Shown here one piece after another: positions 28,447 to 62,563 of a stretch of DNA of 64,000 nucleotides (the first letter of the stretch is position 1; every line of letters starts with the position of its first letter). Origin of the DNA: an uncultured Thermoleophilia bacterium (lineage in GTDB: Bacteria; Actinomycetota; Thermoleophilia; UBA2241). Made by a program: the position numbers and the translations under genes. The notes under the pieces were generated by a model, which did not search any database, had not been told where the DNA came from, and was given only the letters and a program-made list of their open reading frames with translations. The stretch spans positions 439,032-503,031 of the forward strand of contig CAVPXV010000005.1 in NCBI GenBank assembly GCA_963709845.1. The letters run 5' to 3'.

Positions 28447-28524
28447 CGGCGTGTGGCGCAGCCTGGTTAGCGCACTAGTCTGGGGGACTAGGGGTCGCCG
28501 GTTCAAATCCGGCCACGCCGACCA
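28447..28524 (+). tRNA. tRNA-Pro (anticodon GGG)
   Basis: Manually folded cloverleaf: 7-bp acceptor CGGCGTG/CACGCCG, D-arm GCGC/GCGC, anticodon stem CTAGT/ACTAG with loop CTGGGGG, T-arm GCCGG-TTCAAAT-CCGGC, encoded CCA. Confidence 0.85.
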
Positions 28525-44725: not shown

Positions 44726-44859
44726 GACACTAAGAGATATCGCCCGCGGCGCCCGGATACTTGAGTGGCAACGCCGCGTGCGTTGTCACAGCGGACAACG
44801 CGAGGAGCTCTCCCCCAGCCTCGAAGGCGGCGTTGCCGCGCCGCGAGGCGGCCCTGGGG

Positions 44860-46565
44860 TCAGCGGTCGAGCAGCTCCCGCAGAGCGGCGGCGAGCTCGG
44901 CCACGGGCACGTCGCGGCGCTCGCCGCCGGCGCGGTCCTTGAGCTCGACGACGCCCTCGGGCGCGCGTTTGCCGACGACCACCTGCGCCGGGCAGCCGAG
45001 CAGGTCGGCGTCCTTGAACTTGATGCCCGGGGCTCAGGTCGCGGTCGTCGTAGAGCACCTCGAAGCCGGCGGCGGCGAGCTCGGCGTAGAGCCGCTCGGC
45101 GAGCGCCGCCTGCGTCTCGTCGGAGGCGCGCACGAGCACGAGGTGCACGTGGAACGGCGCGATCGCCGCCGGCCAGACGATGCCGTTGCCGTCGTGGTGC
45201 TGCTCGATGGCGGCGGCGGCGATGCGCGCCAGGCCGATGCCGTAGCTGCCCATGACGATGTCCTGCTCCTTGCCGTCCTCGTCGAGGTAGGTGGCGCCCA
45301 TGGGGTGCGAGTACTTGGTGCCGAGCTGGAAGATGTTGCCGACCTCGATCACCCGGGCGCCCTCGAGCTGCGTGGGCGCAGCGCGCGCAGGGGTCGCCCG
45401 GGCGCGCCTGGCGCAGGTCGCGGAACTCGGCCTGCGGGATCTGCGCCGGCGAGACGCCGCCGCGGTGGTAGTCGGGCTTGTTGGCGCCGGCGACGTAGGA
45501 GCCCCGGCGCAGCGCCTCGTCGGCGATCACCGGCAGCGAGGTCGGCACGGGGCCGACGAAGCCCGGCTCGATGCCCTGGGCAGCGAGCACCTCGTCGGCC
45601 GTCGCCATGCGCAACTCGGCGCCGAGCGCCTTGCGCAGCTTGAGCTCGCTGAGCTCGTGGTCGCCGCGCAGCAGGACCATGACGGCGCGGCCCTCGCCGC
45701 CCTCCGCGTCCTCGGCGATCACCACGAGCGCCTTCACGAAGCCGCGCGCCGGCACGCCGAGGAAGGCGCTCACCTCGGCGATGGTGCGCGCCCCGGGCGT
45801 GTGCAGCTCGCCCTCGCCGGGCACCTCGGCCGGCGCCTCCGCATCGGCGCCGGCGACGGCCGTCTCCACGTTGGCCGCGTAGCCGCACTCGCGGCAGTAG
45901 ACGATCTCGTCCTCGCCGGCCTCGGCGAAGGCCATGTACTCGTGCGAGACGTCGCCGCCCATCATCCCCGAGTCGCCCTCGACCATCATCACCGCGAGGC
46001 CGCAGCGCGCGTAGATGCGCTCGTAGGCGCCGATGTGCTTGCGGTAGCTCTCCTGGAGGGCCTCGAAGCTCACGTCGAGGCTGTAGGAGTCCTTCATGAT
46101 GAACTCGCGCGTGCGCAGCACGCCGCTCTTGGGCCGCGCCTCGTCGCGCTCCTTGGTCTGGATGTGGTACCAGAGCTGCGGCAGCTGCTTGTAGCTGTGG
46201 ACCTCGCGCGCCGCCAGCCAGGTGATGACCTCTTCGTGGGTCATCGCCAGCGCCATGTCGGCGCCCTTGCGGTCCTTGAGGCGGAAGAGCTCCTCGTCGA
46301 TGGCGTCCCAGCGGCCCGACTGCTGCCAGATCTCGGCCGGGTTGATGACCGGCATGAGCATCTCCTGGCAGCCGATGGCGTCCATCTCCTCGCGGATGAT
46401 GGCGGCGATCTTCTGCATCACGCGCCAGCCGGCCGGCAGGTACACGTAGACGCCGGCGGCGAGCTGGCGCACGAGGCCGGCGCGCACCATCAGCTTGTGG
46501 CTGATGGCCTCGGCGCCGGCCGGATCCTCTTTGACGGTGGGCAGGAGCAGCTGACTGGCGCGCAT
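44860..46565 (-). pseudogene. proS: Proline--tRNA ligase (bacterial type), two frame changes near the 3' end
   Basis: N-terminal 400 aa intact in ORF 44730..46565 (MRASQLLLPTVKEDP..., class II motifs). The anticodon-binding domain continues in ORF 44786..45352 ([18 protein letters not shown]...). The last about 55 aa ([10 protein letters not shown]...LLDR) are in a third frame. Confidence 0.8.
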
Positions 46566-46609
46566 GTGACCTCGCGATGGTGTGGTGTGGCGGGCGAGGC
46601 CCTATGCTA

Positions 46610-48856
<2,247 letters not shown>

Positions 48857-48913
48857 GCCGGCGATTGTATCAGCCGGCGCCGCCCGCCCGATGTCGGGGA
48901 CTGGCGACCGTTG

Positions 48914-50067
48914 TCAGGCTCGCACGAGCCTTCGCGCGTACTTCGTCGCCAGACGCAACGGCCTGTAGGGCCAGTACAGTGCCGTGAAGGCCGGCTTCAG
49001 ATCGAGCGCCACCCAATCCCCGGGGCCGGGCGTAAAGAGCCTTCGCAGCACGGATTCTGCCGCCGCCAGCGCCGAATCCTCGCTGAGCGCCATCCTGGCC
49101 AGGCTGCGCAGCTCGGCGCCGACCCCGGAAGAGCGGCCTTCGTGAAGCTGGAGAAGAGCCGCGCGAGCCAGCGACTCCGCGAGTGGGTCGCCGGAGAGCT
49201 CGGCCTGGACCTCCAGCGGCAGTGGCAGGTCGAGGGCCACACTCACGACGCGCGCGCCGATCAGACCACGGCGCAAGCAGCGCCAGCGGCGGGCGTCATC
49301 GAGGAAGATCCGCCACTGCGTCGGTGTCATCATGCGCATGACTCTCCCCGCGACCACCACTAGTTCAAGCCGGTCCCACTCGTGCCTTGCGCCGTGCACG
49401 CAGAGCATGAGCAGCGTGTCGTCCAGGCTCGGAGCGGCCACCGACCTGTCAAGTAGGTCAATCGAGTCGAGCGTTCGATGAGATGGTCCGCCGGGATAGA
49501 TGTGGCCTTCAGTAGCGTGCCGACGCGCTCGTGCACCTCCAGCAGGCAGTCGAGGGCTGGGCTGTCGAAGGCCAGCTCCCCGCCCTGCGCGAGATGCGAC
49601 GCGTCGTGCTCCGGTGGCCAGCCGCCGCGACGCGTGAACCCTTCCCGCAGCAGCGCTTCCGTCGCGAGCGGCACCTGCTCGTGAGGGACCAGCACGTCGA
49701 GGTCGGCCGGGGCTCTCAAGCCCGGGTCACCGAACGCTTGCACACTCAGCACGGGGCCCTTGTACGGCAGCGCCGTGATGCCGGCGGCAGACAGTAGGTC
49801 GAGCACGCGGCACAGTCGTGAGGACATGAAGAGGCCGCGCTGCACGGAAGATCGGTAGAGGCTCTGCAGGGTGTCCTTGGCGTCGGCCGGGCACAGGGAC
49901 GGATCCAGCGAGAGCACCTGCTTGTAGAGGAGCGCGCTGAGCCGGTGGTCGATGCTCTGCTGGATTACGGTGGGCCAGTCGACGGTGGCCCGAGCCGCCC
50001 GCTCGAGGTCGCTCGTCGAGGCCGCGCCGACCGCGACGCGCGCGCACGCCACCAGGAGCGGCGACAA
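48914..50067 (-). pseudogene. Nucleotidyltransferase-family protein (PF14907-like, RiPP-cluster associated), one frame change near 49400
   Basis: N-terminal part ...ITALPYKGPVLSVQAFGDPGLRAPADLDVLV; C-terminal part LLMLCVHGARHEWDRLEL in the adjacent frame. Confidence 0.65.
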
Positions 50068-50077
50068 GCCGGGCGCG

Positions 50078-51223
50078 TCAGCCAGTGTCCTCTCTCCTAT
50101 CGCCCGAGGATGGGCCGGGCGCCGGCGCCGCCAGTCGCCCGGCCGGGAACAGGCCGTCCTGCTCGGCGAGCTCGCAGAACCAGTAGGCGCCGAGCACGTC
50201 GCCGGAGCGGTAGTAGTTCTGGGCGATGCAGGAGCCGAGGCAGGCGGCGCGCATCAGGCAACGGCCACACACACCGCCGAGGCCGTCGGGCAGACCCTCG
50301 CGGATGCGCACGAGCACCGGGTGCTCGCGCCAAACGTGCGCCAGCTCGCCCTCGCCGGCGCGACCGAATACCAGCTCCGGCACGTGCTCGCCGATGCCGC
50401 ACAGCGCGTAGCTGCCATCGGCCAGCAGGCCCAGGATCCCACGGATGCCGCAGATGCCGCAGCCGTCGCCGCCGAGGTACTCCCCGAGGGGGCGGAAGGC
50501 CGCGGGGACGTCGACGTAGATCGGCAGGGAGAACCGCTGCCGGAGGTCGTCGCGCACCCGCGAGTGAAGCTCCAGGTACTCGCCGATCGACAGCCCCTCC
50601 CCGCTGGCGTAGATGTCCTCGCCGCGCAGCGTCGGCTGGATGAAGTTGATCTTCACGGAGCCGACGCCCAGCTCCTCGGCGAGCTCCAGCACCGCCTCGA
50701 GCTCGCCGACGTTCGTGCGCATCGCGCTCGTGATGAACTGCGTGTCGAGCCCTGCGGCGACCAGGTTGCGCGTGCCCTCGAGCGTGCGCGCATGCGCCCC
50801 GCGCACGCCGCGGATGGCGTCGTGCACGTCCGCGGAAGCGCCGTCGAGGCTCACGGAGACGAAGTCCACGCCGGCCTCCAGGAGGTGCTCCGCCAAGGCG
50901 CTGGTGACCAGGAGGCCGTTGGTCTCCATGTGCCCGCCGAGCCCGTGATGTGCCTGGATGTCCAGCAGCTCGCCGAAGGCCGGGTGCAAGGTCGGCTCTC
51001 CGCCCGTCCACTTGAGCGTCGTCAGGCCGAGCGGCTTGGCCTCCTCGATGGCGGCGTCCAGGGCGGTAGGCGTGAGGAAGCGCGCGGCGCGGCCGCCGCC
51101 CGCCTTCTTGGCAGGTACGATCCAGCAGTGCCTGCAGGCGCAGTTGCAGCCGTCGGTCACGTACACGTAGAGCTGGCGCAGGGGCGGCGTGCTCACGCTC
51201 GCCGGCGACTCCGTCACTTCCAC
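50078..51223 (-). CDS. Radical SAM/SPASM-domain peptide-modifying enzyme
   Basis: Cx3Cx2C cluster DGCNCACRHCW and a Cys-rich C-terminal SPASM region (CGICGI...CGIGE...CGRCLMRAACLGSC). Confidence 0.85.
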   Translation of the reverse strand: MEVTESPASVSTPPLRQLYVYVTDGCNCACRHCWIVPAKKAGGGRAARFLTPTALDAAIEEAKPLGLTTLKWTGGEPTLHPAFGELLDIQAHHGLGGHMETNGLLVTSALAEHLLEAGVDFVSVSLDGASADVHDAIRGVRGAHARTLEGTRNLVAAGLDTQFITSAMRTNVGELEAVLELAEELGVGSVKINFIQPTLRGEDIYASGEGLSIGEYLELHSRVRDDLRQRFSLPIYVDVPAAFRPLGEYLGGDGCGICGIRGILGLLADGSYALCGIGEHVPELVFGRAGEGELAHVWREHPVLVRIREGLPDGLGGVCGRCLMRAACLGSCIAQNYYRSGDVLGAYWFCELAEQDGLFPAGRLAAPAPGPSSGDRREDTG

Positions 51224-52318
51224 CCCGCGATCCCCTCGGCCTCGAGCTCCGCCTCAAAGCGGCGCAGGCAGGCGTCGGGGCTCGGCCGATTGGCGTCGCC
51301 GAGCAGCGAAAGGGCTCCACCGGCGCAGTTGCCGGTGCACGACTCGATGTAGTCGCAGCCCGCGCACTCCTCGAACTCGGCCAGCGCTTTCTGCCGGCGC
51401 GCGCGCAGCTCCTGCAGCGCCGGCGCGCTCTGCCACACGTCCACAAGCCGGTCTTCGCCGATGTGGCCGAGTACGATCTGCGGCAGCGCCACGCACGGCA
51501 CGTAGGCGCCGTCGGCGCGCACCGCAAGTTGCTTCAGCATGCAGCCGCAGCCCACGAGTTTGCCATGCCCTGGGATGGGCTCTCCCGCCTCCCGCGCCAG
51601 CTCCAGGGCGCAGAACATGTGCCAGTCAGCGAGAGGGCCGGCCATGGCAGTCACGCGCCCCGGATAGCGTTCCTCGAGCTCGGCGAGCGTGTGCATGGCC
51701 TGCACCCGCTGCGCCGGCGTGAGGAACATCCCGAGCTCGTACTTCTCGTGGGTGCCCAGCGAGGTGATGGCGTTGGTGCTGAACGTCGGCAGGCCGAGGT
51801 CGTCGAGCAGGAGCGCCGCCAGCGCCGGCAGGTCGTCGAGGTTGGCGCGCGTTCACAGTCACGCGCACGGTCGTCGGCAGCCCGGCCGCCTGCAGCGTGC
51901 GGATCGCGCGCAGTGCAGGCTCGAAGGTGCCGGGGCCGCGCAGGCGCTCGTGCGCCGCTGCGGTGGAGCCGTCCAGGGAGACCTGGACGGACGAGCACCG
52001 CCGCGTCGCCGCCAGCGCCTGCGCGAGCTCAGCCGTGACGAACCACCCGTTGGTGAGCACGCGAAAGCGGATGTTGCGGCTGCCGAGCTCCTCGGCCAGC
52101 TCGACGAAGTCGGGCCGCATCAGCGGCTCTCCGCCCGCCAGCGTGGCTTCGAGGACCTTTGCCTCGGCGAGTTCGTCGAAGAAGGCGAGCCACGCCGACG
52201 TGGGCAGGTCCTCGTAGCGCACGCCCTCGTTCTTCAGGTAGTAGCAGTAGGCGCAGCGCGCGTTGCAGCGGCTGGTGAGCTCCAGGTCGACCTCGAGAGG
52301 CGTGCGCGGCAGCGAGGC
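51214..52318 (-). pseudogene. Second radical SAM/SPASM-domain enzyme, one frame change near 51680
   Basis: Radical SAM half LELTSRCNARCAYCYY...LAGGEPL in ORF 51626..52504. SPASM half (CGCMLKQLAVRADGAYVPCV...CAGCDYIESCTGNCAG) in ORF 51214..51729. Confidence 0.75.
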
Positions 52319-52323
52319 CAGCG

Positions 52324-52623
52324 TCACGAAGCCACCCTCAGCGCACCCGCGTCGGCCAGGGCGCCCAGCAGCTCCACCACCTCGCGGCTCCCCTCCTGGT
52401 CGAAGCCGTCGAAGCCGCGGCGGAGTTCCGCCAGCAGGTCTCCGACCGTGCGTTCGCCGACCACAAGCCTCCACACGGCAACCGTCGAGCGATTCGCGAC
52501 CCACACCTCGCCGGTGTCCGCGTCGAACAGGATCGCCTCGCCGCCATCTTCCTCCCTGAGCACCCAGCTCGGGTTGATGGTGACTCGCGCGCCCGCGTCC
52601 AAATCGGGTCGATCAGCTCGCAT
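52324..52623 (-). CDS. PqqD-family peptide chaperone (RiPP recognition element)
   Basis: 99 aa with WVLREEDGGEAILFDADTGEVWVANRSTVAVWRLVVGERTVGDLLAEL, the PqqD pattern. Confidence 0.7.
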   Translation of the reverse strand: MRADRPDLDAGARVTINPSWVLREEDGGEAILFDADTGEVWVANRSTVAVWRLVVGERTVGDLLAELRRGFDGFDQEGSREVVELLGALADAGALRVAS

Positions 52624-52676
52624 CGTGCCTCCACTCCCCGCGACTCCTCGACGTCTCGCGCCGGAGTCGCGCTACA

Positions 52677-53681
52677 ATGGCCCCGCTGACTTTCACCGCA
52701 ACGTCAGGCGGTGTCAACCGACCTCAGAGGCCATGTTGCCTTCTCATCCTGTCGACAAGAGGAACGCCTCGCGACCGCATCGGGCGCATCTCCTTCGGCC
52801 CACTGCAGTACGAGCTTGTCGCCGCCGACGACTGGGGCGATGCCACACTGGACGACGTACGTCGACACGTCGAGATGCAGACCTTCGAGGGCGCCTCGCT
52901 GCGGCGCGTGATCTACGCCGGTGTCGAGACTACACAAGCGGAACGGCGGATGGTGGATGGGGGCCGTTTGCCAGCCCCCCTCCAGGCTGCTCACGCCGGC
53001 GCCCTGCCGGCGGACGGGTGGCGGGTCACCGGTGACGACGCCGGCAGCATCCTTTGGCTGCACCCGGGTTCGCCCGTCACCTTCTTGACACCCAGCCCCC
53101 TGCCGCCGCCGCTGCGCGCGCGCATCCGCCTGCCCTGGCAGGCGATCGTGCAGGACGTCGTGGGCTACGGTGGCGCCGTCGTGCACGCAGCCCTCGTGAC
53201 GCACGCCGACAGGGCCTACCTGCTCACCGCTCCCCCTGGGGGCGGCAAGACGAGCACCGTCGCACGCCTGCCCAAGGGTTGGACGCTGCTGGGTGACGAC
53301 GGCTGCCTGCTGTGGGCTGGCAGCGGGCAGTTCTTCGCCAGCCCGCTGCCCACGTGGAGCCACGTGCTGGGCGTAGGCGCAGCGCCGGTCGGGGTCGTGA
53401 CATGGCGCGTCGCTGACGCAGTACCAGTGTACGGCCTTGTCCTGCTGACGAAGGCAGCGCGAGACTCGCTCGCAGAGCTGGACCCCCTCGGAGCCACGGT
53501 GGCGTTCTACCGCGCCTTCTCGGAGCACCCCGCTGTCGTTGGCGCGAGGACAGAGCTGCGTGCTCACCTACTCGAGACGGTCGGCGCTCTCGCGGATACT
53601 GTACCTTGCCACGAGGCACGATTGGCCCTCGCTGCGGCACCGCTCGACGATCTCTTCTGCGCACTGGCTGATGCTGGCTGA
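52677..53681 (+). CDS. HPr-kinase-like (HprK C-terminal-like) P-loop protein of RiPP clusters
   Basis: GGAVVHAALVTHADRAYLLTAPPGGGKTSTVARLPKGWTLLGDDGCLL matches the HprK-related kinase core. Confidence 0.65.
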   Translation: MAPLTFTATSGGVNRPQRPCCLLILSTRGTPRDRIGRISFGPLQYELVAADDWGDATLDDVRRHVEMQTFEGASLRRVIYAGVETTQAERRMVDGGRLPAPLQAAHAGALPADGWRVTGDDAGSILWLHPGSPVTFLTPSPLPPPLRARIRLPWQAIVQDVVGYGGAVVHAALVTHADRAYLLTAPPGGGKTSTVARLPKGWTLLGDDGCLLWAGSGQFFASPLPTWSHVLGVGAAPVGVVTWRVADAVPVYGLVLLTKAARDSLAELDPLGATVAFYRAFSEHPAVVGARTELRAHLLETVGALADTVPCHEARLALAAAPLDDLFCALADAG

Positions 53682-54306
53682 GCGCGCCGACAGGGACGTA
53701 CGACACTTCGTCTACCGCGGGCGAAGCATGTGGCCGCTGTTCCGGGACGGTGACGTCCTCATGGTGCGGCCGGTGCGTGGGCGATCGATACGCCTGGGGG
53801 ACTGCGTCGTGTTTTGCTCGCGACCCGGCCTGCCGCCGATAGTCCACCGTGTCGTTGGCCGCACGGGCGGTTACAGAACGAGAGGCGACGCGCACGCCGA
53901 GTACGACGATCAAGTACTGGGCTCGCTAGACGTGATCGGCGTCGTCTCTGCGCGAGTCCGGGCCGGAGCCGTCAGTAGGGTGTCAAGAGGTTGGAGGGGC
54001 CTCGGCGCGGCGAGCATCGCTCGCCAGGCCGCGAAGCTCGATCCTGCGCTCGACTCGCGAGGCGGCGCACTGGCTCGCGTGCTGAGGCGCACGCTGACGC
54101 GGGCGGCGGACAACCTGGGCCGCCGTGTGACCCACGTGCCTCAGCCTCAGGGTCAAGGAGATCGCGTGGTGCGGCTGGAACTGCTGGGGAAGGTCGTCGG
54201 CGTGCACACCATGCGGCACAGGCACATCGACGTCGACGTGTTCTGGCCGTGGACGCTGCTCTTCACAGCTGAAGCCCTCGAGGAGGGTATCTGCGGGCGA
54301 AGCTAG
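53671..54306 (+). CDS. S26/LexA-like signal-peptidase family protein (candidate leader peptidase)
   Basis: GRSMWPLFRDGDVLMV...GDCVVF...PIVHRVV...TRGDAHAEYDDQV...VIGVV, the SPase I / S24-S26 motif order. ATG overlaps the upstream stop. Confidence 0.65.
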   Translation: MLAERADRDVRHFVYRGRSMWPLFRDGDVLMVRPVRGRSIRLGDCVVFCSRPGLPPIVHRVVGRTGGYRTRGDAHAEYDDQVLGSLDVIGVVSARVRAGAVSRVSRGWRGLGAASIARQAAKLDPALDSRGGALARVLRRTLTRAADNLGRRVTHVPQPQGQGDRVVRLELLGKVVGVHTMRHRHIDVDVFWPWTLLFTAEALEEGICGRS

Positions 54307-54333
54307 GCTTCAGCGCCAGACCGCCGCTCAGGT

Positions 54334-54522
54334 CTACCTGCTGGAGCCGACCTGGCAGTTGCCCTGAAAGTGAGTCCCGCCGGTCTGACAGTGGTTGCCG
54401 GAGGCCGCGGTGCTGCCCGTCTCACAGACGCCGGTCGTCACTGTAGAACCGTTGCTGCACGCCCCAAAGACTTCGGGTAGGGACTCAAGTTTGACTAACT
54501 TTGGTGTCTCCCAACGCTCCAC
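54334..54522 (-). CDS. Candidate RiPP precursor peptide (62 aa, 4 Cys in 11-12-residue repeats)
   Basis: GTG start with RBS AAAGGGG. MERWETPKLVKLESLPEVFGA leader-like part, then CSNGSTVTTGV/CETGSTAASGNH/CQTGGTHFQGN/CQVGSSR. Codon usage is A/T-ending (tta, aaa, ttt, aca, tct, tgt), unlike the rest of the window. Confidence 0.6.
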   Translation of the reverse strand: MERWETPKLVKLESLPEVFGACSNGSTVTTGVCETGSTAASGNHCQTGGTHFQGNCQVGSSR

Positions 54523-54895
54523 AGTTCGGCCCCTTTGTGTGCGTTTCCCGCTCGGTTGCGCGCCATCCTACTTCGTTCGGGGTTCCGGACGCAAGAGTCA
54601 GGATGGTGTCAAGCATGCCTTTCGCGACCAGGTCCTCGACGAACGCGAGGAGGTCACCGAGCAAGTCGTCTGGCGCCGCGTCGAATCGCGTGGCCGCTCC
54701 GCCGACCACGTCGCGCAGCGGTCGAGAGCCGTCGATGAGCTCCCAGATCGCCTGCCCTGTCGCGTTGAGCGTGAACAGATCGTCGAGCGGGTCGCCGGCA
54801 TCCGCGTGCAGGGGCGCGAGGACGACGCGGCCGCCGACCAGGCGGGCCGCGACGTCCGGCGAGTGGATCAGGACGGTGTCGGGTGAGAGCGTCAC
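54485..54895 (-). CDS. Second PqqD-family protein
   Basis: GTG start. VLAPLHADAGDPLDDLFTLNATGQAIWELIDGSRPLRDVVGGAATRF pattern. The 3' end overlaps the precursor ORF start in another frame. Confidence 0.6.
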   Translation of the reverse strand: MTLSPDTVLIHSPDVAARLVGGRVVLAPLHADAGDPLDDLFTLNATGQAIWELIDGSRPLRDVVGGAATRFDAAPDDLLGDLLAFVEDLVAKGMLDTILTLASGTPNEVGWRATERETHTKGPNCGALGDTKVSQT

Positions 54896-55074
54896 GGTCG
54901 CGCCATTATGCCACGCCGCGCCCGCCCCTCCTCCCCCACCGGGCGCATTCTCTGTAGTATCTGGGCGGGCCGCGCCCGCCGCAGGGGGAGCGCGGCCCGG
55001 GCCCGAGGAGGCCGGCGCTGAGCGAGGAGCAACGCAAGCCCCAGATCCGCGACGCCCTGCACCTCGTCGACGCG

Positions 55075-56862
55075 GTGCGGCTGGTGTGGCGCGCCGCCCC
55101 GGGCTGGACCGTCCTCACCGTCTCCCTCGCCTTCGTCCAGGGCATCCTGCCGCTGTTCGCCGTCTACCTGATGAAGCTCATCGTCGACGCGGTGACGCAG
55201 GGCATCACGCAGGCCGACCACGCCGCCGCCTTCCGCACCGCCGCCTTCTACATCGCCCTGGCGGCGCTCGTCGGCCTCGCCACGGCGCTCCTGCGCTCGC
55301 TCGGCGCCGTCGCCAGCGAGGCCATGGGCCAGGTGGTCACCGACCACGTCAGCGACCTCATCCACGAGAAGTCCATCGCCGTCGACCTCGAGTACTACGA
55401 GAACGCCGAGTACTACGACACCCTGCAGCGCGCCCAGAACGAGGCGCCCTCGCGCCCCACGCAGATCGTCAACGACCTGCTGAGCACCGGCCAGAGCCTC
55501 ATCTCCGTGATCGCCATGGTCGGCCTGCTGCTCACGCTGCAGTGGTGGGTCGGCGCGATCGTCGTCGCTCACCGCCATCCCCGGCGCCCTCGTGCGCGTG
55601 CGCTACTCGCACCGCCTCTACGACTGGCAGCGCGGGCGCACCTCCACCGAGCGCCGCGCCTGGTACGCGCACTGGCTGCTCACCAGCGGGCCGCACGCCA
55701 AGGAGGTGCGCCTCTTCGGCCTCGGCGAGCTCTTCCGCGGCATGTACAGCGACCTGCGCCGCGTCCTGCGCACCGAGCGCATCGGCATCGCCAAGCGGCG
55801 CGCCGCCGCCGACTTCGCCGCCGGCGCCCTGGCCGTGCTCGCCATCTTCGGCACCTTCGCCTACATCGTCTGGGAGACGATCATCGGCGCCATCAGCCTG
55901 GGCTCCATGGTGATGTACTACCAGGCCTTCCAGACCGGCCTCACCTCGCTGCAGGCCGTGCTCGGCGGCATGGCCGGGCTCTACGAGGACAACCTCTTCC
56001 TCACCTACTACCACGAGTTCATGGCGCTGGAGCCGCGGGTGCTGCCGCCGGCGCAGCCGGCGCCGGTCCCGCGGCCGATGAGCGAGCGGCGTCCACTTCG
56101 AGGCCGTCGACTTCGCCTACCCGGACACGGAGCGCCAGGCGCTCGCCGACGTCACCCTCGACATCCGCCCCGGCGAGGTCGCCGCCCTGGTCGGCCCCAA
56201 CGGCTCCGGCAAGACCACGCTCGTCAAGCTCCTGTGCCGGCTCTACGACCCCACGGCCGGCGCCATCACCCTCGACGGCACCCCGACCGAGCGCCTTCGA
56301 CGTCAGCGAGCTGCGCCGCCAGATGAGCGTCATCTTCCAGGACTTCTCGCAGTACCAGTTCACGGCGCGCGAGAACATCCGCATCGGCAACGTGGAGCTG
56401 GCGGCGGGCGACGCCGGCGGCGGAGGCGGCGGTGGAGGCCGCCGCCCGCGAGGCCGGCGCCGACGAGGTCATCCGCAGCCTGCGCCACGGCTACGAGACG
56501 ATGCTCGGGCAAGCTGGTTCGAGGAGGGCGAGGAGCTGAGCGTGGGCGAGTGGCAGAAGGTGGCGCTCGCCCGCGCCTTCGTGCGCGACGCGCAGATCCT
56601 CGTCCTCGACGAGCCCACGAGCGCGCTCGACCCGGAGGCCGAGTGGCAGATCTTCCAGCACATCCGCGAGCTCGCGCGCGGCCGCGCCGTGGTGCTCATC
56701 AGCCACCGCTTCAGCACCGTGCGCACGGCCGACCGCATCCACATCCTCGACGGCGGCCGCATCGTCGAGAGCGGCAGCCACGACGAGCTCGTCGCCCTCG
56801 GCGGCCGCTACGCGCGCATGTACGAGGTGCAGGCGCGCGCATACACCACCGGCGACGGATAG
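55075..56862 (+). pseudogene. ABC exporter (fused TMD-NBD, MsbA/MdlB-like), at least 5 frame changes
   Basis: TMD in ORFs 55075.. and 55592..56326. NBD motifs split across frames (Walker A GPNGSGKTTLVKLL, Q-loop, signature LSVGEWQKVALARAF, Walker B ILVLDEPTSALD, H-loop ISHR). Confidence 0.8.
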
Positions 56863-56910: not shown

Positions 56911-58146
56911 GTGATCGACGCCGGCCCAACCACACGACCAGCATCGCGCCTCTGGAGGCGCTGCACGGCCGGCGCGGCGCCTCGCCGCGGTCGCCTCCGT
57001 CACGCCACCCGCCTGGCCGCCGTCGCGGCTCTCGTGCTCCTCGGGTTCGCCGGCTCGGCCGCCGCCCTGGCGGCGGCCCCGCCGCCCGCCTCAGCCCTCT
57101 CCAAGGGCCTCATCGAGCCCCGCTACGAGCAGTCCACGACGGACCTGGTTCGCGCCAGGCTCATCACGCAGATGGGGTCGCAACTCCACACCGGCTGGGT
57201 GCTCATCAACGTCGATTGGGCCAAGCCTGGAGCCCACGCGCGGCCTCTACGACCCGGTCGAGGTCGCGCGCCTCGACACACTCGTCAACGGCCTGCACAA
57301 GGCCGGCATCAAGGTCATGCTCTCTCCCTGCTACGTGCCGGCGTGGGCCTCGCAGACCTCGTGGTGGACGAAGCCGCCGCCGAGCTACGGCGTCGGGCTA
57401 CCAGCCCTTCTACCCCATCCGCTCGGACGCCCTGCCGGACCTCACCCGTCTGGGCAAGTTCCTTGCCACCCACTTCAGCGGCCGCGTGCAGGCGCTGCAG
57501 TGCTGGAACGAGCCCAACCTGTGGCCGTTCCTCTACCCGCAACGCACCAGCGACGACGCCTACTTCGGGGCGCGCACCTACCTGGGCATGCTCAAAGCGT
57601 TCCACGCCGGCGTCACGCAGGCGCACACCAAGGTCCAGGTCGTCGCCGGCGCCACGGCGCCGATCGGCCTCAACGACTCCATGCGCACCAGCCCTCAGCG
57701 CTTCGCCGGCTTCCTCGCCCGCAACCACGCGGGCAGCTACTTCGACGCCTACTCGCACCACCCGTACACGCCCGGCGGCACCATCTTCCAGCGCCCCGAC
57801 CAACCGCCCAACGACCCTTCGGTGACGGTCACGCTCTACAACCTGAGCACGCTGCTGCGCCTCTTCCCCACCAAGCCCTTCTACCTCACCGAGTACGGCT
57901 ACAACACGCACCCGTCGATGGCGTTCGGCTACTTCACGGTGAGCGCCGCCAAGCAGGCGGTGTACCTGCGGCTGGCGTACGCGCGGGCGCGCAAGTACCC
58001 GCAGGTCAAGGTGCTGTTCTGGTACCTGCTCTACGATTCGCGCCCGACGTCCGGGCCGGCCGAGCAGGGGCGTCTACACGGGCCTACGAGAGGGCAACGG
58101 GACGCGCAAGCCGGCCTGGTACTCGTTCCGCGACCTGCCCAGGTAA
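56911..58146 (+). pseudogene. Secreted GH5-like glycoside hydrolase, 3 frame changes
   Basis: Signal peptide, then WNEPNL (catalytic acid region) and TEYGYN (nucleophile region) split over ORFs 56911.., 57317.. and 57216.. Confidence 0.6.
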
Positions 58147-58208
58147 CGAAAGGGCGCCGCGCGGCGCAGACTCTGCGTCGGCGCGCGGCGCCCCGATCCA
58201 GAACCGTG

Positions 58209-58960
58209 CTACTTCTTGACGGTGAGCGTCGAGCTGTTGCCGGTGGTCGTGGCGGCGAGGTACGGAGCCGCCTTCGTTGCGTTGGTGTAGGCCTGGAAGC
58301 GGTACTTCCCAGCGGAGCCGAGCTGGAGCGTGAGCGAGTACTTGCTGTAGGCGCCGCTATTCGAGTTGGTCGCCGTGTAGGTCTTGTACGTGCTCCATTT
58401 GCCGTTCTTGTAGCGGAAAGCGCTGATGTGCACGGGATTGACGCCCGGCCCGGCCTGCGGCTTGAGCGTGCCGGTGATGGTGAAGTTCTTGTTGATCTTG
58501 ACGGAGGCCGGCACCTTGGGGACGGTCAGCGACGGCTTGACGTGGATGAGCAGCGAGTTGCTGAGGGACGGGATCGTACGGAGGGTTGCCGAGGAATACG
58601 AAGCGGTAGTAGGTGAGCTGCTGGGGGTACACCACGGCGGCGTATTGGCCGGTGGCGTACTGCCCCGGGTCGGTGGTGAGCGTGGCGAGGAGCGTCCACG
58701 GAGAGGGTGACCGGTGGGCGACCACTCCAGACGCACGAACTGGCCGCCGAGGGCCGTGAGCGTGACGTATCCATGAGGGTGCCGGTGACGATCTTGTAGC
58801 CGCCCCAGGTGATGGTCGAGTTGGTCGGGACGGCCGTGAGGCTCGTCGTGTCGGCGGCGGCGATGGCCGGGACGACGAGCATCACCAGCATCGCCGCGAC
58901 GACGACGAGCAACACCGGCACCTTCATCCGGGCGGGCTTGATCGCGGACCTTGCGTTCAT
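58209..58960 (-). pseudogene. Secreted beta-sandwich (Ig-like) protein, 2 frame changes
   Basis: Signal peptide MKVPVLLVVVAAMLVMLVVPAIAAA in ORF 58526..58960. Beta-rich Thr/Ser domain in ORF 58209..58736. Confidence 0.45.
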
Positions 58961-59015: not shown

Positions 59016-60698
59016 CTATGCGAGTGGCGCGGCGGAACAAAGGGGGACGACGCTTCTGGCCGCCGCCGTGGGCGGCGCCGAGGAGGCCGTCAGGCGATCG
59101 GCGCTGCCGGCTTGCTCGTCTTGGCCTCGTACTTCTTGCCGCTCCGGCTGTACGAGTAGCCGGACGAATAGGAGGAGTAGTAGCGCCCCTGCCGGTGCTC
59201 GCCGTCGGTGCGCACGATGATGCCGAGCGCGGCGCACGGGAGCTTGCCGAGCTGCTCGGCCGCGCGCTCCAGCATCGGCCTCGTCGCGACGTGCATGTCG
59301 ACCAGGAACACGAGTCCGTCCACCGTCGAGGCCAGCGCCGCCGTGTCGCCCACGGCAAGCAGCGCCGGCGAATCCACGAGCACGATGTCGGCCGTTGAGA
59401 CAAGCGTCTCGATCATGCCGGCGAACCGCCGGGACGCGACGATCTCGCCCGGGTTCGGCGGCAGCGGCCCGCTGGTGAGCACGTAGAGGGAAGTGACGCC
59501 CTCGCTGCCGGCCGCCCATCCCTCGAAGTCCACACCGTTGGCCCCGTTGCCGCTCGAGGTCACCACGACCTTCTGCAGCGCCGAGTCCAGCGGGCCCTTC
59601 CCGGTCGTGACGGTGCTCACGCCGTGTTCGTTGTCGAGCCCGAAGTACTGATGCTGGCGCGGGCGCCGCAGGTCCCCGTCCACGACGATGACCTTCTTGC
59701 CGGCGAGCGCCATGGCCACCGCCAGGTTGGCGACGGTGACGCTCTTGCCCTCGCCCTGGATGCCGCTCGTCACGAGCAGCGAGTGCACGTGGGCATCGAC
59801 GCTCATGAAGTCGAGATTCGTGCGCACGAGGCGGAACGCCTCGGCGGCGTGCCCGTCGGGGTCGCTCAGAGTCGCGACGGTGTGCTCGCCCAAGAGCCGC
59901 TTGGAGATGCGCGGGATGCGACCGAGGACGGGCTGACGAAGGACCTGGGCCACTTCCTCGGAGCGCCGTACGCGCGTGTCGAACTGCTCGAGGAGGAAGG
60001 CCAGGCCGATCGCCAGCGAGGAGCCCGACGCCGAAGCCGAGCACGGCGCTGCGCAGCGGCTTTGGCGAGACCGGCGCTGCGGGCGGCGTCGCCGGCACCA
60101 GCACGCGGAAGTTGCCCGTGGCGGTCGCCTTGAGGATCCTGAGGTCCTGCAGGCGCTGTGCGAGGACGAGGTAGTCGGTGCTCTGCTGGGCCGCTCCCTG
60201 ATAGGACTTGAGCTGCGTCTTGGTCGCGTGCGATGGCCCGCTGGATCTGCGTGGCGGTCTGCTCGCGTGCGCCAGCGCGACGAACGCCACCGCGTAGGCG
60301 TTGGCGGCCGCGGCCGCCAGCCTGGGGCTCGAGCTCGTGGCGGTGATGCGCACCACGTTGCTCGTCGTCGTCGTGGCCGCCGCCCCGGTGTCGGTGACGG
60401 GCTGCGACGAGACCGTGAAGCCGGTGACCGCGACGCCCTTGTCGCGCAGCACTCGAGCGGCTCGCCGCGTCATGTCCGGGCTCGCCAGCACGCTCCCTAC
60501 GCTGGCCAGCTCGAGGTTGCGCGCGGTGGGGTCGGTGTACGTCTGCCCGGTCAGCGGATTGGAGAGGTCCAGCTGCTGCTCGTAGATGAGGTCGGCGCTG
60601 GCCTCATACTGTTTGGTCTGGCGCGCCGAGAAGAAGTAGGCCGAGCCCGTGGCCACAGCGACCACCAGCAGGATGATCCACTTGCGGCGCCAGAGCAC
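59016..60698 (-). pseudogene. Fused Wzz-type chain-length determinant + BY-kinase (polysaccharide tyrosine autokinase), one frame change near 60020
   Basis: N-terminal TM/Wzz part LWRRKWIILLVVAVATG. Kinase part with Walker A GIQGEGKS, VVDGDLRRP and a Tyr cluster YYSSYSSGYSYS in ORF 59090..59953. Confidence 0.8.
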
Positions 60699-61074: not shown

Positions 61075-62528
61075 GTGCGCCACGGCTGCTGCCGTCGCGC
61101 AGCCGGGCTGCTGCGCGCGCATTCGCTGCGACGTGGCCTCAGCGTCCTCGCCCTCATGGCGACTGACGTCGGGGCGTTCGCTCTGTCGTACGCACTCGTA
61201 TCGCTGGCATCGGGACTCGCGCGACTCGCGGCGTGGCACGGCGTGTCTCGTCGCGGGTTCTTCACCGCCGAGCGTGGCCATCGTGGTGCACATGCGCTGC
61301 TGAAGGGGCTCTACGGTCGCCTCCACGCTCGCCACTCCGCCAGAACGGATCCTCTCTGCGTGGGGCATCGCCGCGTTGGTGACGACGCTGGTGCTCGTCG
61401 TCATCGATGGTGACAGCATCGGGCTCCGGCTTCTCGTCGTGTGGTGTCTCGCCACGGCGATTTCGCTGGCGGCAGGTGGGCCTACGACACGTGCGTGTGG
61501 CTCGCTACGGGCAGGAGGCAGAGCACCCGCCCTGCCCTGCTCCTCGGCAGCCTGGACTCGTGCCAGCGGGCCCTGCCCGTGCTTCCGGCGCTTCCGCCCG
61601 AGAGTCCGGGTCTCGGTCGTCGGCTTCGTCGTGCCGTCGAGAAGAGAGTGGCTCGACCGTGGCACACGGAGGGCCACCCCCGTCGTCGGCACTCTCGACC
61701 AGCTGGCAGGGTCGGCGAGGAGTACGGGAGCGACGAGGTCGTCATAGCGGATCGCGACTCGGTCAACGGGCAGCTGAGCGGCGTCATGGACGCGTGCCGC
61801 ACCCACGGCGTCGGCGCTCAAAATGATGGCGACGGGCTCTCAATCTGAATGGCGACCGCGTGACCTACGTGCCGGGATTCGACTGCCCGATCTTCGTCGA
61901 TGCAGACGAAGCCAGGCCGGGCACGCGAGCTTCCTCGCCAAGCAGGTCCTGGATCGAGTACTCGCTGCGCGTCCTTGCTCCTCCTCCTGAGTCCACTGCT
62001 GGCGGGGCTTGCCCTGGCGATCAAGCTGACGTCAGCAGGGCCTGTGTTCTTCGTCGATGAGCGGGTGGGCATCGGGCAGCAGCCGTTTCGCCTGTACAAG
62101 TTCCGCACGATGGTCGCAGACGCCCGAGAGACGCAAGCCGCTCTCGAGTCCGAGAACGAGGCAGGCGAACGTGCTGTTCAAGATCCAGGAGGACCCCAGG
62201 GTGACGCCGCTGGGTCGCGTCCTGCGGCGGTTCAGCCTCGACGAGCTGCCGCAGCTCGTCGAACGTTCTCAAGGGCGACATGAGCCTCGTGGGTCCCCGC
62301 CCGCTGCCGCTGCGCGATTGCGCGCTGATGGAGGACTGGCAGCGACAGCGGCACGTCGTCCTCCCGGGCATCACCGGGCTGTGGCAGGTGAGCGGCCGCA
62401 GCTGTCTCGACTTCGACGATATGATGGACCTCGATCTGCGCTACATCGAGACGTGGTCGCTGACCAGCGACCTGCACATACTCTGGAGGACTGCCGACGC
62501 AGTCGTCCGTTCGCGTGGCGCCTGCTGA
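61075..62528 (+). pseudogene. Polyprenyl-phosphate glycosyl-1-phosphate transferase (WbaP-like sugar transferase), about 4 frame changes
   Basis: Bac_transf motifs LLLLLSPLLAGLALAIKLTSAGPVFFVDERVGIGQQPFRLYKFRTM, VLFKIQEDPRVTPLGRVLRRFSLDELPQL and MSLVGPRPL...PGITGLWQVSGRS in successive frames. Confidence 0.7.
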
Positions 62529-62563
62529 ATTCCCGCCGGTCGCTCTGTCGAAAGGGATCGCCA

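What the first reader, a model, noticed from the sequence alone, without database searches (positions are those of the whole stretch)
54334..54522. Candidate precursor peptide with four C-x(11-12) repeats and atypical AT-rich codons
The ORF translates as MERWETPKLVKLESLPEVFGA|CSNGSTVTTGV CETGSTAASGNH CQTGGTHFQGN CQVGSSR. Its composition (Cys, Thr, Gly, Ser; almost no Arg/Ala/Pro) is the opposite of the spurious Arg/Ala-rich ORFs this genome produces. Its codons end mostly in A/T, and local GC drops. It has a GTG start with an AAAGGGG RBS. Each repeat offers Cys plus Thr/Gly acceptors, as in rSAM-installed thioether peptides. A G-A junction before the first Cys could be the leader cut site.
Basis: seen in the sequence. 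Interest (0 to 1): 0.8.

Follow-up and report, generated by a model that had tools for sequence, protein, structure and literature searches.

The report
Unannotated precursor peptide of SynChlorMet cassette
The small ORF is real: it encodes a 62-residue precursor peptide with four Cys-x-x-Gly repeats, which belongs to a widespread but biochemically uncharacterised gene cassette (SynChlorMet, two radical-SAM enzymes), so it is a new, unannotated member of a known kind.

Summary
The ORF at 54334-54522 (minus strand) exists exactly as described. It has a GTG start, an AAAGGGG ribosome-binding site, and Cys at residues 22, 33, 45 and 56.

It is not a chance ORF. A profile built from 35 related peptides, with this one left out, scores it at 67 bits (E 6e-20). 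The next best of 1034 six-frame ORFs in the window scores 11 bits.

The surrounding genes form a SynChlorMet (SCM) cassette:
- ScmF and ScmE, both radical-SAM/SPASM enzymes
- ScmD (PqqD-type) plus a second PqqD gene directly upstream of the peptide
- ScmC, a P-loop protein with an HprK/PEPCK fold
- a soluble S24/S26-like peptidase
- an ABC exporter
- a PF14907 nucleotidyltransferase

The peptide hits the curated ScmA model TIGR04252 only weakly (19.4 bits, cut-off 35). It is also absent from the public protein collection, so it is a divergent, unannotated ScmA-like precursor.

Of 81 ScmF loci from other genomes, 55 carry similar small ORFs. The leader is [WY]-x-x-P. The core has 2-19 Cys (mostly 4-5) and the period is about 10-11 residues. 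Gly follows each Cys at +3 in 85% of repeats, and in 96-100% within the closest subfamily.

The chemistry is unknown. Thioether crosslinking, possibly Cys to Gly(+3), is my inference. The "codons end mostly in A/T" claim is overstated: 26% end in A/T, against 8% in housekeeping genes.

The parts
54334..54522 (-). ScmA-like precursor peptide gene. It has 62 codons plus TAG. The leader is residues 1-21 (54460-54522). The core is residues 22-62 (54337-54459) and holds four C-x-x-G-[SG]-[TS] units.
   Evidence: Searches give the ORF and translation. TIGR04252 ScmA scores E 9e-4, 19.4 bits. phmmer finds relatives. The leave-one-out profile scores 67.1 bits, E 6e-20.
54530..54536 (-). Shine-Dalgarno-like AAAGGGG, 7 nt upstream of the GTG start.
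   Evidence: Read directly from the sequence.
54485..54895 (-). Second PqqD-family (RRE-type) gene, directly upstream of and co-directional with the peptide gene. Its open frame runs 38 nt into the peptide gene.
   Evidence: Pfam PF05402 PqqD scores 50.8 bits over residues 38-95. The same PqqD-then-precursor arrangement occurs in L082, L090 and L001.
55075..56862 (+). ABC exporter (fused TMD-NBD type, no C39 peptidase domain), divergent from the PqqD2-precursor pair. The Walker A part of the NBD is not matched in this frame, so a frameshift is probable.
   Evidence: Homologues occur in 49 of 81 ScmF loci.
53671..54306 (+). Soluble S24/S26-like serine peptidase, convergent with the peptide gene. 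Motifs present: GRSMWP, IVHRV and RGD. There is no N-terminal hydrophobic anchor. Its ATG overlaps the end of scmC by 11 nt. It is the candidate leader peptidase.
   Evidence: Peptidase_S24 E 2e-4; TIGR02228 archaeal-type signal peptidase I 48 bits, cut-off 51.85. It co-occurs only with Trp-type leaders: 11 of 19 against 0 of 36 loci.
52677..53681 (+). ScmC, a P-loop (GGGKTS) protein with a PEPCK/HPr-kinase fold. It is a probable phosphotransferase.
52324..52623 (-). ScmD, a PqqD-family peptide-binding protein. Its stop codon overlaps the ScmE start (GTGA).
   Evidence: TIGR04248 E 4e-13. PF05402 scores 34 bits. The overlap is shown.
51214..52327 (-). ScmE, a radical-SAM/SPASM enzyme. It is split by a single extra C at about 51844-51845. 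After removing one base it reads through with CxxxCxxC and a full SPASM Cys set.
   Evidence: TIGR04250 matches two pieces, profile positions 1-151 and 194-351. The frameshift is mapped.
50078..51223 (-). ScmF, a radical-SAM/SPASM enzyme, intact. It has CNCACRHC and eight C-terminal Cys.
   Evidence: TIGR04251 scores 425.5 bits, above the cut-off of 400. The nearest solved structure is PqqE 6c8v, E 7.6e-14.
48914..50067 (-). PF14907 (NTP_transf_5) nucleotidyltransferase, downstream of scmF, read in two frames.
   Evidence: Homologues occur in 23 of 81 ScmF loci and next to the ABC gene in L087 and L088.

Best explanation
The ORF encodes an ScmA-like ribosomal precursor peptide, the substrate of the SynChlorMet (SCM) cassette around it.

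Shown here:
- The ORF belongs to a conserved family of small peptides that sit next to ScmF/ScmE genes in many phyla.
- The N-terminal 21 residues form a conserved leader: W4-E-x-P7, hydrophobic 9/10/12, L15-P16, G20.
- The C-terminal 41 residues are four copies of a C-x-x-G unit.

Inferred pathway:
1. The PqqD-type proteins bind the leader. These are ScmD and the extra copy encoded just upstream of the peptide. PqqD does the same for PqqA, and StsC for StsA.
2. They present the core to the two RRE-less SPASM radical-SAM enzymes ScmE and ScmF.
3. These enzymes most likely turn each Cys thiol into a thioether crosslink. I put this at about 0.45. The near-invariant Gly at +3 is the best acceptor candidate. 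That would give a string of small Cys-S-C-alpha(Gly) sactionine rings, like the Cys31-Gly34 ring of streptosactin. I put this specific link at about 0.2.
4. ScmC (HprK/PEPCK-fold P-loop protein) and the PF14907 nucleotidyltransferase may add a phosphate, and perhaps a further group, to a Ser/Thr. The best candidate is the conserved G-S-T of repeat 1.
5. The soluble S24/S26-like peptidase removes the leader near G20-A21|C22.
6. The ABC transporter exports the product.

The biological activity of the product is unknown.
For: Homology: phmmer against 1.84e9 proteins finds 18 hits at E<=1e-3. Fifteen are 45-102 aa peptides with the same leader and Cys pattern. The leave-one-out profile scores 67.1 bits, E 6e-20, and is unique in the window. 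TIGR04252 ScmA is the only NCBIfam hit, E 9e-4.

Context:
- ScmF scores above its curated cut-off. ScmE, ScmD and ScmC are recognisable.
- There is a second PqqD, an S24/S26 peptidase, an ABC exporter and a PF14907 gene.
- The same gene set is syntenic in other loci.

Family:
- 55 of 81 ScmF loci carry at least one such ORF, and 10 loci carry several.
- Gly at +3 occurs in 85% of all repeats and in 96-100% at each of the four Cys in the 27-member Trp-type subfamily.
- The distance from leader Trp to first Cys is 18 residues in 33 of 67 relatives, and also here.

Coding constraint: dN/dS is 0.33 against the L082 paralogue, with synonymous sites near saturation.

Enzymes: both rSAMs have CxxxCxxC and SPASM cysteines once a single base is removed from ScmE. 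Neither has an N-terminal RRE, since the radical-SAM/family match starts at residue 14-21 of ScmF.

Peptidase: it is found only with Trp-type leaders. Fisher p is 6e-7, not corrected for phylogeny.

Precedents from papers:
- Cys-Gly sactionines made by MftC-like rSAMs with a discrete RRE: StsA/B/C and BlaA (PMC10288494).
- i to i+3 Cys-Gly and Cys-Ser rings in streptosactin (PMC8172795).
- HprK-like kinase and nucleotidyltransferase tailoring a Ser in lasso peptides (PMC8498205).
Against: - The peptide scores below the curated ScmA cut-off (19.4 against 35 bits).
- No product, transcript or enzyme activity is known for any SCM cassette. No paper in the searchable library mentions it.
- ScmE carries a frameshift in this assembly. 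If it is real, the cassette is crippled.
- ScmE and ScmF are closer in sequence to AhbD, NirJ, MftC and PqqE than to most known thioether synthases: StsB about 80 bits, PapB at most 52 bits, AlbA 48 bits. Sequence therefore does not decide the chemistry.
- The gene order here differs from most loci, where the peptide gene follows scmF.
- No promoter or terminator consensus was found.
Confidence: 0.85

Rival explanations
1. The precursor and the cassette are as described, but the two radical-SAM enzymes do not make thioethers. They would carry out other chemistry on the C-x-x-G units. Candidates are oxidation of Cys to a thioaldehyde or formylglycine-like residue, C-C or C-N crosslinks, epimerisation, or heterocycle formation. 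In that case the Gly serves only as a conformational requirement.
For: The best non-SCM family matches of ScmF and ScmE are AhbD, NirJ, MftC and PqqE, which are not thioether synthases. The nearest solved structure is PqqE. Two different rSAMs per cassette hint at two different reactions. Full-length similarity is known to mispredict function in this superfamily (PMC10288494).
Against: Cys is the only invariant core residue, and Cys-rich repeat cores beside SPASM enzymes have so far mostly proved to be thioether substrates (PMC10288494, PMC8172795). Cys plus conserved Gly is exactly the donor/acceptor pair of StsA, BlaA and streptosactin.
Confidence: 0.3
2. The peptide is the precursor of an intracellular peptide-derived redox cofactor, in the manner of PQQ or mycofactocin. 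It would not be a secreted natural product.
For: The leader W-x-x-P-h-h-x-L resembles that of PqqA. The machinery is of the PqqD plus PqqE-like type. Most of the ScmF loci returned come from MAGs of lineages I know as anaerobes.
Against: - The core varies strongly between relatives, the repeat number ranges from 2 to 19, and 10 loci have several paralogues. This is unlike a cofactor precursor.
- There is no Glu/Tyr pair and no C-terminal Val-Tyr.
- None of the ORFs scanned between 48.9 and 58.6 kb matched PqqB, PqqC or other Mft families.
- A dedicated ABC exporter is present in 49 of 81 loci, and a peptidase is present.
Confidence: 0.07
3. The cassette in this genome is decaying and the peptide gene is a relic that is no longer used.
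For: ScmE, the PF14907 gene and probably the ABC gene are interrupted. The 44-58 kb part of the window has lower GC3 than the rest.
Against: - The essential proS gene and gmd are interrupted in the same stretch. This points to assembly indels rather than true pseudogenes.
- The ScmE defect is one extra base, and conservation is normal on both sides: 58-63% identity to intact homologues.
- Related contigs from the same kind of assembly have frameshifts at other positions.
- The peptide frame is intact through all four repeats and aligns end to end with relatives.
Confidence: 0.07
4. The ORF is a chance open frame in a GC-rich genome.
For: Hundreds of spurious ORFs exist in this window: 152 of at least 40 aa in 18 kb.
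Against: The leave-one-out profile gives E 6e-20, while all other 1033 six-frame ORFs score at most 11 bits. Relatives sit beside ScmF genes in many phyla. dN/dS is below 1. An RBS is present.
Confidence: 0.01

Closest known systems
ScmA, precursor of the SynChlorMet cassette (NCBIfam/TIGRFAMs TIGR04252, with ScmC TIGR04249/PF27840, ScmD TIGR04248, ScmE TIGR04250, ScmF TIGR04251)
   Same: It is the only family model the peptide hits. The partner genes ScmC, D, E and F are the same. It is a small peptide with a leader followed by Cys-containing repeats. No function has been demonstrated for either.
   Different: - It scores 19.4 bits against a cut-off of 35, so automatic annotation does not name it.
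- Only 15 of 36 context-defined relatives hit the model at all, even at E<=1, so the curated model covers a narrow part of the real family.
- The peptide gene is not downstream of scmF. It lies behind a second PqqD gene, convergent with the peptidase-scmC pair.
- The host has about 70% GC, whereas the ScmF loci returned from other genomes come mostly from Deltaproteobacteria-type, Chloroflexota and other MAG lineages.
StsA/StsB/StsC (Streptomyces sparsogenes) and BlaA/BlaB sactipeptides
   Same: Both use a discrete PqqD-type RRE and an MftC-like SPASM rSAM, with conserved Cys and conserved Gly in the core. The Cys-S to Gly-C-alpha sactionines are proven there (PMC10288494). ScmF and the ScmE N-terminal piece hit the StsB model at 83 and 79 bits.
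   Different: StsA has a CxCxC...GxGxG hairpin made by one enzyme. Here the C-x-x-G units are spread evenly with an 11-12 residue period, and there are two enzymes. The scores are far below the StsB cut-off of 625.
Streptosactin (GggA/GggB)
   Same: It has unnested four-residue rings, Cys25-Ser28 and Cys31-Gly34. This is the same i to i+3 C-x-x-G/S geometry as each unit here (PMC8172795).
   Different: It has two rings only. The enzyme is described as more similar to ranthisynthases (PMC10288494). It comes from a streptococcal cluster mined as quorum-sensing-regulated (PMC8172795). No HprK-like or nucleotidyltransferase genes are described in that cluster.
Freyrasin (PapA/PapB) and NxxC ranthipeptides (own knowledge, not tested here)
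   Same: These are repeat-built cores in which every short unit (CxxxD, NxxC) receives its own small thioether ring.
   Different: The acceptor is a side-chain beta-carbon of Asp or Asn. The PapB model scores at most 52 bits on the ScmE pieces (cut-off 340) and is not among the listed hits of ScmF.
PqqA/PqqD/PqqE (PQQ biosynthesis)
   Same: A trans-acting PqqD works with an RRE-less SPASM rSAM. PqqE is the nearest solved structure to ScmF. The leader has a similar W-x-x-P-h-h-x-L motif (weak).
   Different: There is no Glu...Tyr pair in the core and no pqqB/pqqC among the ORFs scanned. The core is a variable Cys repeat.
HPr-kinase-like kinase plus nucleotidyltransferase tailoring of lasso peptides (paeninodin, pseudomycoidin)
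   Same: A RiPP cluster contains an HprK-fold protein and a nucleotidyltransferase. There they phosphorylate, and then glycosylate, a Ser of the precursor (PMC8498205).
   Different: No lasso cyclase or B protease was found among the ORFs scanned here. Whether PF14907 is the same nucleotidyltransferase family as in pseudomycoidin was not tested. ScmC has an extra N-terminal domain and aligns best with PEPCK.

Membership tests
ScmA (TIGR04252, SynChlorMet precursor) | Scores at or above the curated cut-off (35 bits) of the equivalog model | tested here: not met
   The score is 19.4 bits, E 9e-4, over residues 4-50 against profile positions 1-46 of 49. It is the only family hit, but it is sub-threshold.
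ScmA (TIGR04252, SynChlorMet precursor) | Encoded in a cassette with ScmC, ScmD, ScmE and ScmF | tested here: met
   ScmF scores 425.5 bits against a cut-off of 400. ScmE matches in two pieces, 164.5 and 180.8 bits. ScmD scores 49 bits. ScmC scores 59.9 bits and carries the precomputed PF27840 assignment. All lie within 4.5 kb of the peptide.
ScmA (TIGR04252, SynChlorMet precursor) | Homologous small ORFs lie beside ScmF orthologues in other genomes | tested here: met
   55 of 81 ScmF loci carry such an ORF at E<1e-3. The leave-one-out profile scores the window ORF at 67.1 bits.
Sactipeptides | Precursor with leader and Cys-containing core, a SPASM/twitch radical-SAM enzyme, and an RRE (fused or discrete) | tested here: met
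Sactipeptides | Cys sulfur to alpha-carbon thioether bonds in the product | not testable with these tools
   This needs MS/MS, NMR or NaBD4 desulfurisation of the modified peptide.
Sactipeptides | Type I hairpin layout, with donor Cys clustered N-terminally and acceptors C-terminally | tested here: not met
   The Cys are evenly spaced at 22, 33, 45 and 56, each followed by its own Gly at +3. Only the unnested streptosactin-like layout would fit.
Ranthipeptides (SCIFF/CteB, PapB, QhpD type) | Maturase matches a ranthisynthase model, or the precursor matches SCIFF | tested here: not met
   The PapB model scores 18.9 and 51.7 bits on the two ScmE pieces, against a cut-off of 340, and is not among the listed hits of ScmF. 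The peptide has no SCIFF hit.
PQQ precursor PqqA | Conserved Glu-x-x-x-Tyr in the core, and pqqB/pqqC in the operon | tested here: not met
   The peptide has no Tyr. None of the ORFs scanned between 48.9 and 58.6 kb matched PqqB or PqqC.
Mycofactocin precursor MftA | C-terminal Val-Tyr | tested here: not met
   The C-terminus is ...GSSR.
Phosphorylated lasso peptides | Lasso cyclase (Asn-synthetase-like C protein) and B1/B2 leader protease next to the kinase | tested here: not met
   None of the ORFs scanned between 48.9 and 58.6 kb matched these families. Only the HprK-fold protein, PqqD and a nucleotidyltransferase are shared.

The most novel reading that the evidence does not exclude
SCM peptides would be a structurally new RiPP class. 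Each roughly 10-residue C-x-x-G unit would be closed into its own small ring by one of two dedicated radical-SAM enzymes. The ring would be a Cys-Gly(+3) sactionine or a crosslink not yet described. A PEPCK/HprK-fold phosphotransferase and a nucleotidyltransferase would then decorate the peptide. The result is a 'beads-on-a-string' product whose length is set simply by the repeat number. The window would provide a compact four-bead example from a high-GC lineage, with its own peptidase and a second RRE.
Probability: 0.3. Interest if true: 0.65.

Novelty: new member of a known kind. Interest (0 to 1): 0.45.

Why it matters
The SynChlorMet cassette has been a named family in curated databases without any product, reaction or function attached. 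I found no paper on it in the searchable library.

This work supplies three things for a high-GC genome:
- the missing substrate gene, which the exact-sequence look-up suggests was never called in the public record
- the full set of accessory genes
- the finding that the precursor family is much broader than the curated ScmA model

It also defines the repeat grammar of the family:
- the C-x-x-G unit and its period of about 10-11 residues
- a repeat number of 2-19, mostly 4-5
- the leader [WY]-x-x-P, 18 residues before the first Cys

That grammar gives a concrete, testable target for heterologous reconstitution. If the chemistry turns out to be new, 459 genome loci and 1620 ScmF-like proteins at E<=1e-30 become interpretable at once. 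If it is ordinary sactionine chemistry, this is one more divergent sactipeptide family.

Tried and rejected
1. The word-indexed protein search with the peptide found nothing. The exhaustive phmmer search was needed.
2. A scan of metagenome contigs with an alignment of the five closest peptides matched 73 pattern stretches, but none was confirmed by tblastn.
3. Literature searches found nothing on this cassette. The terms were SynChlorMet; ScmF plus radical SAM; TIGR04250-52/ScmA/ScmE; HPr kinase plus radical SAM plus RiPP plus SPASM; Syntrophobacter plus radical SAM; CxxG plus radical SAM; and SPASM plus PqqD plus two radical SAM. A guessed PMC id for Haft and Basu 2011 is not held. The supplements of PMC10288494 are not held.
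4. No sigma-70-like promoter or intrinsic terminator was found in 54200-55150. The RNA downstream of the stop codon folds no better than shuffles, z -0.2.
5. I considered a programmed or conserved frameshift in ScmE, because the closest contig L001 also has a split ScmE. I rejected it. The window's shift is at profile position about 186-205, while L001's is at about 315-339. In addition, proS and gmd are also broken.
6. The source organism could not be identified. The ScmF protein is in the protein collection (NCBI/ENA, 683-kb contig), but its contig is not in the encoding-contig index and was not among the genome loci returned. The gene order ftsK, rimO, recA, rny, dapL, hflX, ligD does not settle the phylum.
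7. The Pfam hit of the peptide to 'CC domain' (E 0.006, below threshold) was dismissed as compositional.
8. Thr/Ser at +5 as the general thioether acceptor (CteB-like spacing) was rejected as a family rule. It is conserved only in repeat 1.
Full report
**1. The observation**

The ORF lies on the minus strand at 54334..54522. It has 62 codons, a GTG start and a TAG stop. Cys sit at residues 22, 33, 45 and 56, so the spacings are 11, 12 and 11. The composition is dominated by Gly, Thr, Ser and Cys, with only two Arg, three Ala and two Pro.

AAAGGGG lies at 54530-54536, seven bases before the GTG. GTG is the first start codon in the open frame. Local GC drops to 0.61-0.63, against 0.706 for the window.

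The codon statement is overstated. 26% of codons end in A/T (43% in the leader, 17% in the core). This is still three to five times the 8.2% of eight housekeeping genes in the window. The ORF also uses very rare codons such as TTA, at 0.2 per 1000.

**2. It is not a chance ORF**

An exhaustive phmmer search of 1.84 billion proteins found 18 hits at E<=1e-3, the best at 5.7e-8. Fifteen of them are 45-102 residues long. All fifteen show the same plan: a leader K-W-E-x-P-K-h-h-x-L-x-x-L-P-x-x-x-G-x, followed by C-x-x-G units.

A profile built from 35 relatives, without the window peptide, scores the ORF at 67.1 bits (E 6.3e-20). The best of the other 1033 six-frame ORFs of the window reaches 10.9 bits. 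Against a paralogue in contig L082, dN/dS is 0.33, with synonymous sites nearly saturated.

**3. What surrounds it**

NCBIfam and Pfam identify a SynChlorMet (SCM) cassette:
- ScmF at 50078-51223(-), 425.5 bits, above its curated cut-off of 400.
- ScmE at 51214-52327(-), read in two frames.
- ScmD (PqqD-type) at 52324-52623(-). Its stop overlaps the ScmE start.
- ScmC at 52677-53681(+), which carries the precomputed Pfam assignment PF27840.
- An S24/S26-like peptidase at 53671-54306(+). Its ATG overlaps the end of scmC.
- The peptide gene, convergent with the peptidase.
- A second PqqD gene at 54485-54895(-), immediately upstream of the peptide.
- An ABC exporter at 55075-56862(+).
- A PF14907 nucleotidyltransferase at 48914-50067(-), downstream of scmF.

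The peptide itself hits only one curated family, ScmA (TIGR04252). The E-value is 9e-4 and the score 19.4 bits, below the cut-off of 35. The exact 62-residue sequence is not in the 15-billion-protein collection, although ScmF and ScmC of the same 683-kb contig are. The peptide gene was therefore evidently not called in the public record.

**4. Integrity of the locus**

ScmE is interrupted by one extra C at about 51844-51845. With that base removed, the frame reads through. It then shows 58-63% identity to intact homologues on both sides of the shift, and it has CxxxCxxC and a full set of SPASM cysteines.

The essential proS gene, gmd, the PF14907 gene and probably the ABC gene are also split in the 44-58 kb stretch. 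The related contig L001 has its ScmE shift at a different position. I therefore read these breaks as assembly indels, not as a programmed frameshift or as decay. Only resequencing can prove this. The peptide frame aligns end to end with its relatives.

**5. The family elsewhere**

ScmF has 1620 relatives at E<=1e-30 and 459 genome loci, mostly metagenome-assembled genomes of many phyla.

In the 81 loci fetched:
- ScmD-ScmE-ScmF synteny is general. ScmC occurs in 52 loci, an ABC exporter in 49 and the PF14907 gene in 23.
- 55 loci carry at least one ScmA-like ORF (66 ORFs in all, and 10 loci have several). Usually it lies directly after scmF.

Over 67 peptides:
- The number of Cys runs from 2 to 19, with modes at 4 and 5.
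- The Cys-Cys spacing peaks at 10-11.
- Gly follows Cys at +3 in 85% of units.
- Ala at +6 occurs in 41%.
- The first Cys lies 18 residues after the leader Trp/Tyr in 33 of 67 peptides, exactly as here.

There are two leader types. The Trp-type is W-[EQ]-x-P and mostly has four Cys. The Tyr-type is K-Y-E-x-P...L-G-x-x-A-K-G-x-G and often has more units.

In 27 Trp-type peptides, the window's subfamily, 20 have four core Cys. Gly at +3 is 96-100% conserved at each of the four. Ser/Thr at +5 is conserved (96%) only in the first unit.

The S24/S26-like peptidase was found only in loci with Trp-type leaders: 11 of 19 against 0 of 36. Fisher p is 6e-7, without phylogenetic correction.

The closest relatives are 71-72% GC contigs L001, L082 and L090 (GC). 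They share the window's unusual order, PqqD2 - precursor - peptidase/ScmC - ScmD-E-F. Each carries two tandem precursors, one of them with three Cys.

Only 15 of 36 context-defined relatives hit TIGR04252, even at E<=1. The curated model therefore covers a narrow part of the real family.

**6. How it most likely works**

*Inferred.*
- The PqqD proteins bind the leader and deliver the core to ScmE and ScmF. This follows the logic of PqqA/PqqD/PqqE and StsA/StsC/StsB. PqqE is also the nearest solved structure.
- The enzymes most likely convert the Cys thiols to thioethers.
- The near-invariant Gly at +3 is the best acceptor candidate. Cys-Gly sactionines are proven for StsA and BlaA, which are made by MftC-like enzymes with a discrete RRE (PMC10288494). 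Streptosactin contains exactly such i to i+3 rings, Cys31-Gly34 and Cys25-Ser28 (PMC8172795).
- ScmC and the nucleotidyltransferase may phosphorylate and further decorate a Ser/Thr. The conserved G-S-T of unit 1 is the obvious candidate. The analogy is the HprK-like kinase and nucleotidyltransferase of paeninodin and pseudomycoidin (PMC8498205).
- The peptidase would remove the leader near G20-A21|C22, and the ABC protein would export the product.

*Confidence.* About 0.85 that this is the SCM precursor. About 0.45 that the chemistry is thioether. About 0.2 that the link is Cys to Gly(+3).

*Against.* ScmE and ScmF resemble AhbD, NirJ, MftC and PqqE more than most thioether synthases. Nothing is known experimentally about any SCM cassette.

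**7. Comparison with known systems and novelty**

By context and homology this is an ScmA-like precursor. By the curated score threshold it is not a called member of TIGR04252, and I report both facts.

- It works like a sactipeptide or ranthipeptide system with a trans-acting RRE.
- It fails the type I hairpin layout of classical sactipeptides.
- It fails the sequence criteria for SCIFF/PapB-type ranthipeptides, PqqA and MftA.
- It lacks lasso machinery.

I found no paper on the cassette in the searchable library.

The verdict is a new, unannotated and divergent member of a known but uncharacterised kind. Interest is moderate. The surprise is small for a specialist. However, the locus gives a compact, complete and testable four-unit example of a widespread orphan RiPP system, together with a clear repeat grammar for the whole family.

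Noticed in passing
window 54485-54895 (-): A second PqqD-family gene sits directly upstream of the precursor, in addition to ScmD. Its open frame overlaps the precursor start by 38 nt. The same PqqD-then-precursor pair occurs in contigs L082, L090 and L001.
   Followed up: partly
window ~51844-51845 (-), inside scmE: A single extra C splits ScmE into two frames. Removing it restores a full-length radical-SAM/SPASM protein. The related contig L001 has its ScmE shift at another position, so the frameshift is not conserved.
   Followed up: yes
window 44730-56862: Several genes in this stretch are read in two or more frames: proS (essential), gmd, the PF14907 gene and probably the ABC exporter. 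The genes checked in 1-37 kb give single near-full-length family matches: recA, rny, ligD, hflX, dapL and rimO. This looks like local assembly indels, and GC3 is also lower there.
   Followed up: partly
window 48914-50067 (-): A PF14907 (NTP_transf_5) nucleotidyltransferase lies downstream of scmF. Homologues occur in 23 of 81 ScmF loci. Together with the HprK-fold ScmC, it recalls the kinase/nucleotidyltransferase pair that tailors some lasso peptides.
   Followed up: partly
window 46699-48856 (-) and 62515-63501 (+); L090 9019-9650: GDP-mannose 4,6-dehydratase and GDP-fucose synthase genes flank the cassette. A further GDP_Man_Dehyd-family gene lies at 62.5 kb. The related contig L090 also has a GDP_Man_Dehyd gene near its cassette. 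This may be a sugar donor supply for the nucleotidyltransferase, or just a neighbouring polysaccharide locus (a Wzz-like gene lies at 59016-60698).
   Followed up: no
L082 7273-7509 and 7624-7782; L090 4466-4919; L001 4646-4967: The closest high-GC relatives each carry two tandem precursor paralogues, one with only three Cys. They also have PIN-domain toxin genes next to the cassette. The window has a single precursor.
   Followed up: partly
loci L002-L081: The S24/S26-like peptidase occurs only in loci whose precursor has a Trp-type leader: 11 of 19 against 0 of 36 with Tyr/Phe-type leaders. No phylogenetic correction was made, and some Trp-type loci without it are short contigs.
   Followed up: partly
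alignment A2: The curated ScmA model TIGR04252 detects only 15 of 36 context-defined precursors, even at E<=1 (best 1.8e-6). Most ScmA-like genes beside ScmF are therefore probably left unnamed by automatic annotation.
   Followed up: partly
[not shown]
   Followed up: partly
window 54496-54498 (-), codon 9 of the peptide: A TTA leucine codon is used (0.2 per 1000 codons in housekeeping genes of the window). Other very rare codons (ACA, CCA, CTA, AAA, TTT) are concentrated in the leader. This may affect translation initiation or regulation.
   Followed up: no
window 28447-28521 (+): This is the only Rfam match in the window: one tRNA gene, 62.5 bits.
   Followed up: no
window 56911-58616 (+): Long ORFs downstream of the ABC gene (for example 57216-58616, 466 aa) have no Pfam or NCBIfam match and no tblastn match in the 81 ScmF loci. 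Whether they belong to the cassette is unknown.
   Followed up: no
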